A stretch of DNA of 64,000 nt from an uncultured Nitrospiraceae bacterium (GTDB lineage Bacteria; Nitrospirota; Thermodesulfovibrionia; UBA6902). Within the stretch, counting starts at the first letter, position 1, and each line of letters starts with the position of its first letter. The position numbers and the translations under genes were made by a program. The notes beneath the pieces were generated by a model. That model made no database searches and was not told the origin of the DNA. It saw nothing but the letters and a program-made list of their open reading frames with translations. Shown piece by piece: positions 22,429 through 23,391 of the stretch. The stretch lies in assembly GCA_964393845.1 (NCBI GenBank), contig CAYMUX010000003.1, positions 48 to 64,047 on the forward strand, in the 5' to 3' direction.

Positions 22429-23391
22429 ATGAGTTCGTTTATTTCAAATTCGCGGCGTGGGAAATCACGACCACAGCAGCGTTCGAATGTGCCGGCGCGC
22501 AGGGTTGCTTCATCTGATGAGAAAAAGTTTCTTGCCGGTACGGCAGTAAACCCGCATACGCGTATCATTCTTGAGAAGGGCAGTGATGATTTGTCCGTCC
22601 GTGCGCTTGATCTTATTTGTCCGATAGGGATGGGACAGCGTGCTCTTGTAGTAGCATCGCCTGGGTTGGGTAAAACGACATTTTTAAAGAATATCTGTAA
22701 TGCGGTAACAAACGGGTATCCTGACATGAAGGTATATTGCTTACTTGTTGATGAGCGTCCTGAAGAGGTGACTGATTTTACTCGTAGTGTGACTGCCAAG
22801 GTATATTCCTCGTCTATGGATCATAGTCATGAAAATCATATTAAGGTTGTCGATAAGGTTATCGCAGAGGCTTTTAAGGAAGCTGCTGCAGGGCATAATG
22901 TGATGATATTGCTTGATTCACTTACGCGTCTGGCGCGGGTACATAACGCACAGCACAGAGGTAGAGGGCGTACGCTTTCCGGAGGAGTGGGTGCCGGTGC
23001 ACTTGAAGTACCACGTCGTATTTTTGGTATTGCCCGTAATATCGAGGGTCTGGGCTCTATAACAATCCTTGCGACGATCCTGGTCGATACAGGCAGTGCT
23101 ATGGATAATGTTATATTTGAGGAGTTTAAAGGTACGGGTAATATGGAACTGGTGCTCTCAAAGAAACTGGCGGAAAAAAGGGTGTTCCCGGCAATCGATG
23201 TGTCAAAGAGTGGTACCCGGCGTGCTGAGCTTTTGTTTGAGCCGGAAGAGTACAGACGCCTTGAATTATTGTACCGGGGCATGGCAACGATGAATAGTGT
23301 TGCCGCTATGGAAAAGCTGATAGAGATGCTTCAGAAATATCCGAGTAATAGCGCTCTTTTAGAATCATTTAAGGATGTTAAGGTTAGTTAG
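22429..23391 (+). CDS. Rho-like ATPase comprising only the C-terminal RecA/ATPase domain of transcription termination factor Rho; the N-terminal OB-fold RNA-binding domain is absent.
   Basis: Shine-Dalgarno aaggag upstream. Walker A ASPGLGKTT; Rho-specific LLVDERPEEVTDF, LDSLTRLARVHN, R-loop RTLSGGVGAGALEVPRRIFGIARN, EEFKGTGNMELVLSKKLAEKRVFPAID. Residues 30-60 align with the linker after the E. coli Rho OB-fold. No NTD-like coding sequence in the 470-bp AT-rich upstream region. Confidence 0.75.
   Translation: MSSFISNSRRGKSRPQQRSNVPARRVASSDEKKFLAGTAVNPHTRIILEKGSDDLSVRALDLICPIGMGQRALVVASPGLGKTTFLKNICNAVTNGYPDMKVYCLLVDERPEEVTDFTRSVTAKVYSSSMDHSHENHIKVVDKVIAEAFKEAAAGHNVMILLDSLTRLARVHNAQHRGRGRTLSGGVGAGALEVPRRIFGIARNIEGLGSITILATILVDTGSAMDNVIFEEFKGTGNMELVLSKKLAEKRVFPAIDVSKSGTRRAELLFEPEEYRRLELLYRGMATMNSVAAMEKLIEMLQKYPSNSALLESFKDVKVS

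What the first reader, a model, noticed from the sequence alone, without database searches (positions are those of the whole stretch)
22429..23391. Rho paralog lacking the primary RNA-binding N-terminal domain
The 320-aa product aligns with the Rho C-terminal ATPase/translocase domain, including the Q- and R-loop regions, and begins at the linker after the OB-fold. It has its own Shine-Dalgarno and start codon, and a 470-bp AT-rich non-coding region upstream shows no N-terminal-domain remnant. A Rho motor without rut-site recognition might be a regulator or decoy, a component of an MGE or defence module, or partner with another RNA-binding protein.
Basis: partly seen in the sequence, partly recalled or inferred. 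Interest (0 to 1): 0.65.

Follow-up and report, generated by a model that had tools for sequence, protein, structure and literature searches.

The report
Rho motor without its RNA-recognition domain
This gene encodes a conserved relative of the bacterial transcription terminator Rho that keeps the ATP-driven ring motor but replaces the RNA-recognition domain with a short, positively charged tail; it belongs to an uncharacterised family found in several bacterial phyla.

Summary
ORF 22429-23391 (+) encodes 320 aa matching Rho only from its connector to its C-terminus. An in-frame stop lies 4 codons upstream, and no Rho N-terminal domain is detectable in the window. It is not an artefact: the same ~320-aa architecture recurs in 40 species genomes, mostly Thermodesulfovibrionia MAGs, at 68-94% identity.

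All ATPase residues and the Q-loop are kept. The R-loop lysine is Ala here, and the P-loop Lys181 is Gly in every member. Residues 1-33 form a conserved, disordered, Arg-rich tail.

On the ATPase domain this family groups with NTD-less forms from Omnitrophota, Sericytochromatia and many marine Gammaproteobacteria, apart from canonical Rho (bootstrap 100/100, 89/100 with outgroups). One gammaproteobacterial copy sits on a Spartinivicinus ruber phage-plasmid. Gammaproteobacteria have canonical Rho, so there the clade is an extra paralog.

Whether this Nitrospirota genome also has a canonical rho could not be tested. Gene neighbours are not conserved, and the MazG link is coincidental.

Best reading: a rut-independent Rho-like ring ATPase that captures RNA through its basic tail. 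It is a new variant of a known kind, of moderate interest.

The parts
22429..23391 (+). CDS of the 320-aa NTD-less Rho-like ATPase (stop codon included)
   Evidence: ORF. Rho models match only over their C-terminal two-thirds. The AlphaFold model has mean pLDDT 87, and its best PDB matches are Rho chains at TM 0.85 over about 285 residues. dN/dS of the core is 0.09-0.27.
22429..22527 (+). Codons 1-33: disordered, Arg-rich basic tail (MSSFISNSRRGKSRPQQRSNVPARRVASSDEKK) in place of the ~127-aa Rho N-terminal domain
   Evidence: Residues 1-22 have pLDDT below 50. R9, R10, R14, R18, R24 and R25 are conserved in 71-92% of 121 family members, with net charge +5 to +9. All other clade members inspected also start with a basic tail of 15-45 aa. 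dN/dS is higher than in the core, 0.26-1.5.
22654..22680 (+). P-loop ASPGLGKTT (residues 76-84). The Walker A Lys and Thr are kept; the residue equivalent to E. coli K181 is Gly
   Evidence: K184 and T185 equivalents are invariant. The K181 equivalent is Gly in 113/113 Nitrospirota and 120/120 gammaproteobacterial members, against K or R in 154/156 other Rho sequences.
22948..22998 (+). Q-loop region (residues 174-190, ..RGRGRTLSGGVGAG), the secondary RNA-binding site
   Evidence: Equivalents of E. coli K283 (Arg), T286 (Ser), G287 and G288 are conserved, as in most of the other Rho sequences compared.
23089..23106 (+). R-loop TGSAMD (residues 221-226). The lysine that contacts RNA in E. coli (K326) is Ala
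   Evidence: T-G-S is invariant. Position 224 is A73/R18/N16/C3 in the Nitrospirota family, R107/120 in the gammaproteobacterial subfamily, and R or K in 144/156 other Rho sequences.
22418..22423 (+). Shine-Dalgarno AAGGAG
   Evidence: Sequence. TAAGGAGTATATATG is nearly universal upstream of family members.
22250..22428 (+). Upstream block conserved at the DNA level that travels with the gene. It holds TTGAAA (22276-22281), an extended -10-like TGATAAACT (22292-22300) and then a ~120-nt leader
   Evidence: 75-95% identity over about 145-200 nt in at least 17 loci with different neighbours, always directly 5' of the gene. The -10 hexamer varies as TAnAnT. There is no Rfam match, and no support for an RNA structure from covariation or stability. 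The role as promoter and leader is inferred.
21946..22249 (.). Non-conserved, AT-rich remainder of the intergenic region, with no coding remnant of a Rho N-terminal domain
   Evidence: GC 0.33-0.38. No tblastn hit with five NTD queries. Not conserved in relatives apart from L012, which aligns from 22230.

Best explanation
The gene encodes an expressed member of a distinct, multi-phylum clade of Rho-like ring ATPases. In this clade the whole primary RNA-binding domain (helix bundle plus OB fold, about 127 aa) is absent, and a 15-45-aa disordered basic tail stands in its place.

Shown:
- The architecture and its conservation.
- Intact catalytic residues and Q-loop residues.
- Purifying selection on the core.
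- That the clade is separate from canonical Rho.

Inferred:
- The protein forms a RecA-type hexamer, hydrolyses ATP and threads RNA through its central channel like Rho.
- Lacking the pyrimidine-specific OB-fold pockets, it cannot read rut sites. Six Arg-rich tails on the face of the ring where the N-terminal domains normally sit would capture RNA electrostatically and without sequence preference. Partner proteins may also help.
- It therefore acts as a rut-independent RNA translocase or terminator.
- In Gammaproteobacteria the clade coexists with the canonical rho, so it is most likely an accessory paralog with a specialised task rather than the housekeeping terminator. I extend this to the Nitrospirota genome by analogy only.
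For: Architecture:
- Only the connector and ATPase domain of Rho are matched.
- An in-frame stop lies 4 codons upstream of the ATG.
- No NTD is detectable in the window or within +-10 kb of any of 41 related loci, while the control loci are positive.

Fold:
- Mean pLDDT is 87, and Rho chains are the top PDB matches at TM 0.85. Residues 1-22 are disordered.

Motor:
- Equivalents of K184, T185, E211, R212, D265, R269 and R366 are invariant, and Q-loop R/S/G/G is kept.

Selection:
- Core dN/dS is 0.09-0.27.
- The arginines of the tail are 71-92% conserved.

Clade:
- The Nitrospirota family groups with the Sericytochromatia, Omnitrophota, P0122 and gammaproteobacterial forms at 100/100 NJ bootstrap, and 89/100 with FliI/SctN outgroups.
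- Shared signatures are Gly at K181 and ARVHNAQ.

Coexistence with canonical Rho:
- Clade members occur in cultured Endozoicomonas, Amphritea and Spartinivicinus.
- None of 1045 Pseudomonadota species lacks a functional Rho (PMC11347177, Table 2).

Basic tails also recur in the other NTD-less forms P0128, P0129, P0168 and P0227.
Against: - No biochemical data exist. Hexamer formation, RNA binding and ATPase activity are all untested.
- In E. coli, occupancy of the primary site promotes ring closure (my knowledge of the Rho literature, not checked here), so a motor without that site might not load RNA efficiently.
- The R-loop lysine that contacts RNA is Ala in this protein and variable across its subfamily. 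This could mean weakened or altered RNA translocation.
- The tail evolves faster than the core, and some pairs have dN/dS near 1.
- Coexistence with a canonical rho was not shown for any Nitrospirota genome.
Confidence: 0.55

Rival explanations
1. It is the only Rho of this Thermodesulfovibrionia lineage. The canonical gene was lost, and a minimal, tail-loaded Rho now performs housekeeping termination.
For: - Protein conservation is very high, 73-95% identity over more than 120 clusters.
- There is a single stand-alone gene with a strong, conserved Shine-Dalgarno and a conserved promoter/leader block, which recalls the autoregulated rho leader of E. coli.
- No canonical rho was found in the 64-kb window or in roughly 750 kb of related loci.
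Against: - The gammaproteobacterial members are just as conserved (81-96% identical to the S. ruber copy), yet they occur in bacteria that carry a canonical rho (PMC11347177). High conservation therefore does not argue for a sole Rho.
- No Nitrospirota species is listed among those lacking a functional Rho in a survey of 2730 genomes. I could not see which Nitrospirota that survey included.
- The nearest relatives are other NTD-less forms in other phyla, not a canonical Rho.
- The sampled DNA is too small a fraction of a genome for the absence to mean anything.
Confidence: 0.25
2. It modulates or poisons canonical Rho. It would co-assemble into mixed hexamers that have fewer primary RNA-binding sites, or titrate NusG, and so tune or block Rho-dependent termination. 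In the phage-plasmid copy this would be a host-takeover function.
For: - The ATPase domain that forms the ring is about 48-53% identical to canonical Rho, and the arginine finger and catalytic residues that act across subunits are invariant.
- One clade member is carried by a phage-plasmid as an opposite-strand gene between the lysis module and small genes.
- SutA-RBD RNA-polymerase-binding small proteins lie nearby in two gammaproteobacterial loci.
- An unrelated 132-kb viral contig also encodes an NTD-less Rho.
- Mixed hexamers have been proposed for two-rho species (PMC11347177).
Against: - A pure poison would not need an intact catalytic site, Q-loop and basic tail kept under purifying selection across phyla.
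- Most copies are chromosomal with ordinary neighbours.
- No interaction data exist.
Confidence: 0.15
3. It is cargo of a mobile element or defence island in this genome.
For: - The segment just upstream is low in GC and carries a ParE toxin-antitoxin pair and a truncated C5 methyltransferase. A MazG-like gene and an SNase nuclease lie nearby.
- The gene and its leader appear in different neighbourhoods in related genomes. Its synonymous divergence is often much lower than that of adjacent genes, and its relationships disagree with theirs.
- The S. ruber copy is on a phage-plasmid.
Against: - No integrase, transposase or phage gene is linked to it in the Nitrospirota loci.
- No neighbour is conserved.
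- PADLOC gives only a 21-bit P-loop match.
- No relatives of this subfamily were found in IMG/VR.
- In other genomes it sits among housekeeping genes such as the purB-like gene.
Confidence: 0.05
4. It is a pseudogene remnant or a deletion artefact of a full-length rho.
For: Only the missing N-terminal domain.
Against: - The same start, length and tail occur in 40 independent species genomes and more than 120 protein clusters.
- Core dN/dS is 0.09-0.27.
- The Shine-Dalgarno and promoter block are conserved.
Confidence: 0.01

Closest known systems
Canonical transcription termination factor Rho (E. coli; Thermus 8hsj; TIGR00767 / NF006886)
   Same: - Connector plus RecA-type ATPase domain at about 48-57% identity.
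- Walker A/B motifs, catalytic Glu, Arg valve, Arg finger, Q-loop and the C-terminal helices are all present.
   Different: - No Rho_N helix bundle and no OB-fold primary RNA-binding site; a 33-aa basic tail stands in their place.
- P-loop K181 is Gly.
- R-loop K326 is Ala.
- It scores below the TIGR00767 cut-off, 346 against 509.
Short 'Group B' / Type 4 Rho and NCBIfam paralog_Rho2 (NF041509, 'Rho, short form')
   Same: These are shorter second Rho proteins that lack part of the N-terminus, and they are often paralogs (PMC11347177).
   Different: - They keep the OB-fold RNA-binding domain. For example P0147, P0154 and P0211 hit PF07497.
- The window protein has no such domain, and it scores 299 bits against the 628 cut-off of NF041509.
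- Under that paper's definitions it falls among the 'Rho-like' single-domain sequences, which the main text does not analyse.
Rho factors with basic, disordered additional regions (Mycobacterium, Bacteroides; Type 2 of PMC11347177)
   Same: A basic, disordered segment N-terminal to the motor. For Bacteroides Rho, PMC11347177 reports that the inserted region raises RNA affinity or drives condensation.
   Different: In those proteins the disordered region is added to an intact N-terminal domain. Here it replaces that domain.
FliI / SctN / F1-beta ATPases
   Same: The RecA-type core, and a GxGKT form of the P-loop (the latter from my recollection of their sequences).
   Different: Only 25-33% identical, and about 95 bits against cut-offs of 380-700. 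In trees they form the outgroup, and the protein falls within Rho.

Membership tests
Canonical Rho (three-domain architecture) | N-terminal helix bundle (Pfam Rho_N, PF07498) | tested here: not met
   Pfam finds only PF00006. No tblastn match to five NTDs in the window.
Canonical Rho (three-domain architecture) | OB-fold primary RNA-binding domain (Pfam Rho_RNA_bind, PF07497) | tested here: not met
   An in-frame stop 4 codons upstream of the ATG excludes an extension. Controls: the NTD was found upstream of the ATPase domain in 26 of the 28 canonical-type loci, and in none of the 41 short-form loci.
Canonical Rho (three-domain architecture) | Rho-type ATPase domain with Walker A/B, catalytic Glu211, Arg212 valve and Arg366 finger | tested here: met
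   All are invariant in 113 family members. The model superposes on Rho chains at TM 0.85, rmsd 1.5 A.
Canonical Rho (three-domain architecture) | Secondary RNA-binding site: Q-loop and R-loop, including the R-loop Lys/Arg (E. coli K326) | tested here: inconclusive
   The Q-loop residues and R-loop T-G-S are conserved. The K326 equivalent is Ala here (A73/R18/N16 in the family), against R or K in 144/156 other Rho sequences.
Canonical Rho (three-domain architecture) | Curated model cut-offs | tested here: inconclusive
   NF006886 gives 363 bits against a cut-off of 315 (passes). TIGR00767 gives 346 against 509 (fails).
Canonical Rho (three-domain architecture) | Homohexameric ring, RNA-dependent ATPase and termination activity | not testable with these tools
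   Needs biochemistry or multimer modelling.
NCBIfam NF041509 paralog_Rho2 (Rho, short form) | Score at or above the curated cut-off of 628 bits | tested here: not met
   299 bits. Eight other NTD-less forms also fail, at 289-351 bits.
Type 4 / Group B short Rho (PMC11347177) | RNA-binding domain plus ATPase domain, lacking only the N-terminal helix bundle | tested here: not met
   No PF07497. True Type-4-like representatives do hit it.
NTD-less, basic-tailed Rho-like clade (defined here) | Monophyly on the ATPase domain, apart from canonical Rho | tested here: met
   NJ bootstrap is 100/100 and 89/100 with outgroups. These are distance trees only; no likelihood analysis was run.
NTD-less, basic-tailed Rho-like clade (defined here) | Signature residues (Gly at the K181 position; ARVHNAQ after Walker B) and a length of about 300-335 aa with a basic N-terminal tail | tested here: met
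FliI/SctN/F1 ATPases | Curated model cut-offs | tested here: not met
   The best score is 95 bits against cut-offs of 380-750.
Known anti-phage defence systems (PADLOC) | Significant match to a defence-system protein model | tested here: not met
   Only a 20.8-bit P-loop match to mad8.

The most novel reading that the evidence does not exclude
The clade is a second, so far unstudied class of Rho-type RNA motor that loads onto RNA through a basic disordered tail instead of the OB-fold rut-reading domain.

Two versions are open:
- It coexists with Rho across several phyla as a rut-independent terminator or R-loop remover.
- In Thermodesulfovibrionia it has replaced Rho altogether.

Its position near the base of the Rho tree also leaves open that it descends from a form that predates fusion with the N-terminal domain.
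Probability: 0.25. Interest if true: 0.8.

Novelty: new variant of a known kind. Interest (0 to 1): 0.55.

Why it matters
The primary RNA-binding domain is held to define where Rho acts (rut sites) and to help the ring close on RNA. A conserved clade spanning several phyla keeps the motor intact but has dropped that domain. This would show either that a Rho ring can be loaded in another way, or that Rho-type motors have a second cellular job alongside canonical Rho.

The clade is present in cultivable Endozoicomonas, Amphritea and Spartinivicinus, so the question can be tested directly by genetics and biochemistry. These proteins are currently annotated simply as 'transcription termination factor Rho', which hides the difference.

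Tried and rejected
1. Looking for a canonical rho in the same genomes.
- An NTD-only protein search returned only short Firmicutes fragments, because candidate selection favours proteins of the query's length.
- The single genome-contig scan used patterns specific to the short form, so it could not report canonical copies in Nitrospirota.
- No tool gives whole-genome access. The question stays open.

2. An exact look-up of the window protein found no public contig.

3. The weak tblastn hit of an NTD query at 48083-48484 is the helix-hairpin-helix region of LigA, not a Rho domain.

4. RNA structure in the conserved leader.
- There is no Rfam family.
- RNAalifold finds only a 4-bp CUCC/GGAG pairing.
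- The candidate hairpin CCGGGAG/CUCCNGG shows no covariation beyond shuffles.
- Folding energy has z = -0.22.
- Small upstream ORFs are not conserved.

5. Conserved neighbours, including MazG: none.

6. Defence and MGE membership for this subfamily: rejected. The phage-collection hits are ~44-56% identical, canonical-like matches, one of them in a Salmonella genome record filed in that collection, and I did not inspect them further.

7. Rooting the Rho tree with FliI/SctN to ask whether the clade is ancestral. 'Sister to all other Rho' gets only 17/100, so this is unresolved.

8. Localised synonymous constraint in the coding region: diversity at 4-fold sites is even along the gene.

Full report
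**1. Observation**

The ORF at 22429..23391 (+) encodes 320 aa. AAGGAG lies at 22418-22423, and an in-frame TAA at 22417-22419 forbids any N-terminal extension.

Rho models match only from their connector onward:
- NF006886, positions 128-412 of 413, 363 bits against a cut-off of 315.
- TIGR00767, 346 bits against a cut-off of 509.
- Thermus Rho 8hsj, residues 142-424, E = 4e-83.

Pfam sees only the ATP-synt_ab domain. The 483-bp upstream spacer has GC 0.33-0.38.

Five Rho N-terminal domains used as tblastn queries hit nothing relevant in the 64-kb window. The one weak hit, at 48083-48484, is LigA. The same queries detect the NTD immediately upstream of the ATPase domain in 26 of the 28 canonical-type rho loci fetched as by-products. 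They detect it in none of the 41 short-form loci, even within +-10 kb.

**2. Not an artefact**

More than 120 protein clusters at 73-95% identity are almost all 315-321 aa long. Forty GTDB species genomes carry the family at 68-94% identity. They are nearly all Nitrospirota or Thermodesulfovibrionia MAGs, including the 3.17-Mb chromosome CP070632.1. Complete genes are 315-347 aa. Core dN/dS is 0.09-0.27.

**3. Anatomy**

The AlphaFold model has mean pLDDT 87. Residues 1-22 are disordered, and the rest superposes on Rho chains at TM 0.85 and about 1.5 A.

The tail (residues 1-33, net charge +5 to +9) has arginines conserved at 71-92%. It evolves faster than the core.

- Walker A Lys/Thr, Glu211, Arg212, Asp265, Arg269 and Arg366 equivalents are invariant.
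- Q-loop residues are kept.
- The R-loop Lys326 equivalent is Ala here (A73/R18/N16 in the family).
- P-loop Lys181 is Gly in all 233 short-clade sequences, against K or R in 154/156 other Rho sequences.

**4. Family**

In the exhaustive 50%-representative search, the nearest sequences are other NTD-less forms: P0121 at 61% (Sericytochromatia MAG) and P0122 at 57%. Apart from truncated or fragmentary entries, canonical and long Rho stay at or below 54%.

NTD-less relatives also occur in Omnitrophota (L071, 335 aa) and Paraglaciecola (L042, 323 aa). Another sits on the Spartinivicinus ruber phage-plasmid pB, which carries capsid, terminase and holin genes; the protein is WP_163836858.1, 319 aa.

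A distance tree of the ATPase domain unites all of these with the Nitrospirota family at 100/100, apart from every canonical Rho tested. With FliI/SctN outgroups the support is 89/100.

A profile of the non-Nitrospirota members retrieves a large gammaproteobacterial subfamily of 309-331 aa (mostly 314-323), 81-96% identical to the S. ruber copy. It is present in cultured Endozoicomonas elysicola (5.57-Mb contig), Endozoicomonas sp. SM1973, Amphritea balenae and Spartinivicinus poritis, and in Halioglobus and Paraglaciecola MAGs.

A survey of 2730 genomes found no Pseudomonadota among 1045 species lacking a functional Rho (PMC11347177). In these bacteria the clade must therefore be an additional paralog. 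This is an inference; I did not see their canonical genes.

Further NTD-less, basic-tailed forms (P0128, P0129, P0168, P0227) lie outside the clade. A 132-kb viral contig encodes yet another, with a canonical-type P-loop. The architecture therefore recurs.

**5. Context**

No neighbour is shared by more than 5 of 41 loci. MazG is next to the gene only in this window. PADLOC and IMG/VR give nothing for this subfamily.

A DNA block upstream of the ATG is conserved at 75-95% over about 145-200 nt in at least 17 loci with different neighbours. It contains an extended -10-like TGnTAnAAT and the Shine-Dalgarno. No RNA structure is supported.

Synonymous divergence of the gene is often much lower than that of adjacent genes in the same genome pairs (for example 0.32 against 1.43), and its relationships disagree with theirs. 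Synonymous diversity is even along the gene. Either a gene-plus-leader cassette is exchanged between lineages, or synonymous sites are constrained across the whole gene. This is unresolved.

**6. Mechanism**

Most likely (0.55): a Rho-type hexameric RNA-dependent ATPase that cannot read rut sites, captures RNA through a crown of basic tails and/or partner proteins, and acts beside canonical Rho.

Rivals:
- Sole Rho of the lineage (0.25).
- Modulator or poison of canonical Rho through mixed rings, attractive for the phage-plasmid copy and for the loci with adjacent SutA-RBD proteins (0.15).
- MGE or defence cargo in this genome (0.05).
- Pseudogene or artefact (0.01).

**7. Comparison with what is known**

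It is not a three-domain Rho. It is not NF041509 paralog_Rho2 (299 against 628 bits), and it is not the Type 4 / Group B short Rho, which keeps the OB fold.

Under PMC11347177 it counts as a single-domain 'Rho-like' sequence, a class set aside in that paper's main text. A keyword search of a 2025 review of Rho found no mention of such proteins.

**8. Limits**

- Whether this Nitrospirota genome also has a canonical rho could not be tested.
- The trees are distance-based.
- The root position is unresolved (17/100 for 'sister to all other Rho').
- No function has been measured.

Noticed in passing
window 22250-22428: A DNA block directly upstream of the short rho is conserved at 75-95% over about 145-200 nt in at least 17 related loci whose flanking genes differ. 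It contains TTGAAA, an extended -10-like TGATAAACT and a ~120-nt leader. There is no Rfam match and no supported RNA structure.
   Followed up: partly
window 22429-23391 versus L004, L007, L010, L017, L022, L023: Synonymous divergence of the short rho is often several-fold lower than that of the adjacent purB-like or PP2C genes in the same genome pairs, and its relationships disagree with theirs. This suggests either exchange of the gene between lineages or synonymous constraint across the whole gene.
   Followed up: partly
window 20658-21630: A low-GC segment (0.37-0.43) upstream holds a ParE toxin (20658-20915, -), a putative antitoxin (20912-21118, -) and a 93-aa C-terminal fragment of a C5 cytosine DNA methyltransferase (21349-21630, -), probably a decayed restriction-modification gene.
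   Followed up: no
window 23466-25165: A MazG-like pyrophosphohydrolase (23466-23819, -) and a staphylococcal-nuclease homologue (24599-25165, +; PADLOC candidate 'SNc+LTD', 49.5 bits) lie downstream. Neither is linked to the short rho in other genomes.
   Followed up: partly
window 37-9485: Two very large multihaem c-type cytochromes (905 aa and 1742 aa, the latter with an MtrC/MtrF-like domain) are followed by a ResB-like cytochrome-biogenesis gene. This looks like an extracellular electron-transfer cluster.
   Followed up: no
L075:9098-9292; L072:11048-11873 and 14882-14998; L073:9219-9380: In gammaproteobacterial relatives, small SutA-RBD (RNA-polymerase-binding, PF20661) proteins lie next to the short rho. 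One is directly downstream in Endozoicomonas sp. SM1973, and there are four copies on the S. ruber phage-plasmid. E. elysicola has a 53-aa DUF2986 protein downstream instead. There is no equivalent in the Nitrospirota loci.
   Followed up: partly
L085:7977-8852: A 132-kb IMG/VR viral contig encodes a 291-aa NTD-less Rho-like protein with a Lys-rich start and a canonical-type P-loop (AQPKTGKT), set among same-strand short ORFs with no annotation. It appears to be an independent case of a Rho motor without the RNA-binding domain.
   Followed up: partly
L021 and L028 (MAG JADHUV01): One MAG carries two short-rho loci on different contigs, at 88% and 83% identity to the window protein. This is either a real duplication or a bin that mixes two populations.
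   Followed up: no
proteins P0311, P0336, P0350: Proteins of 185-222 aa containing only Rho_N plus Rho_RNA_bind are reported on contigs of 138-242 kb. They may be stand-alone N-terminal-domain genes or split rho genes.
   Followed up: no
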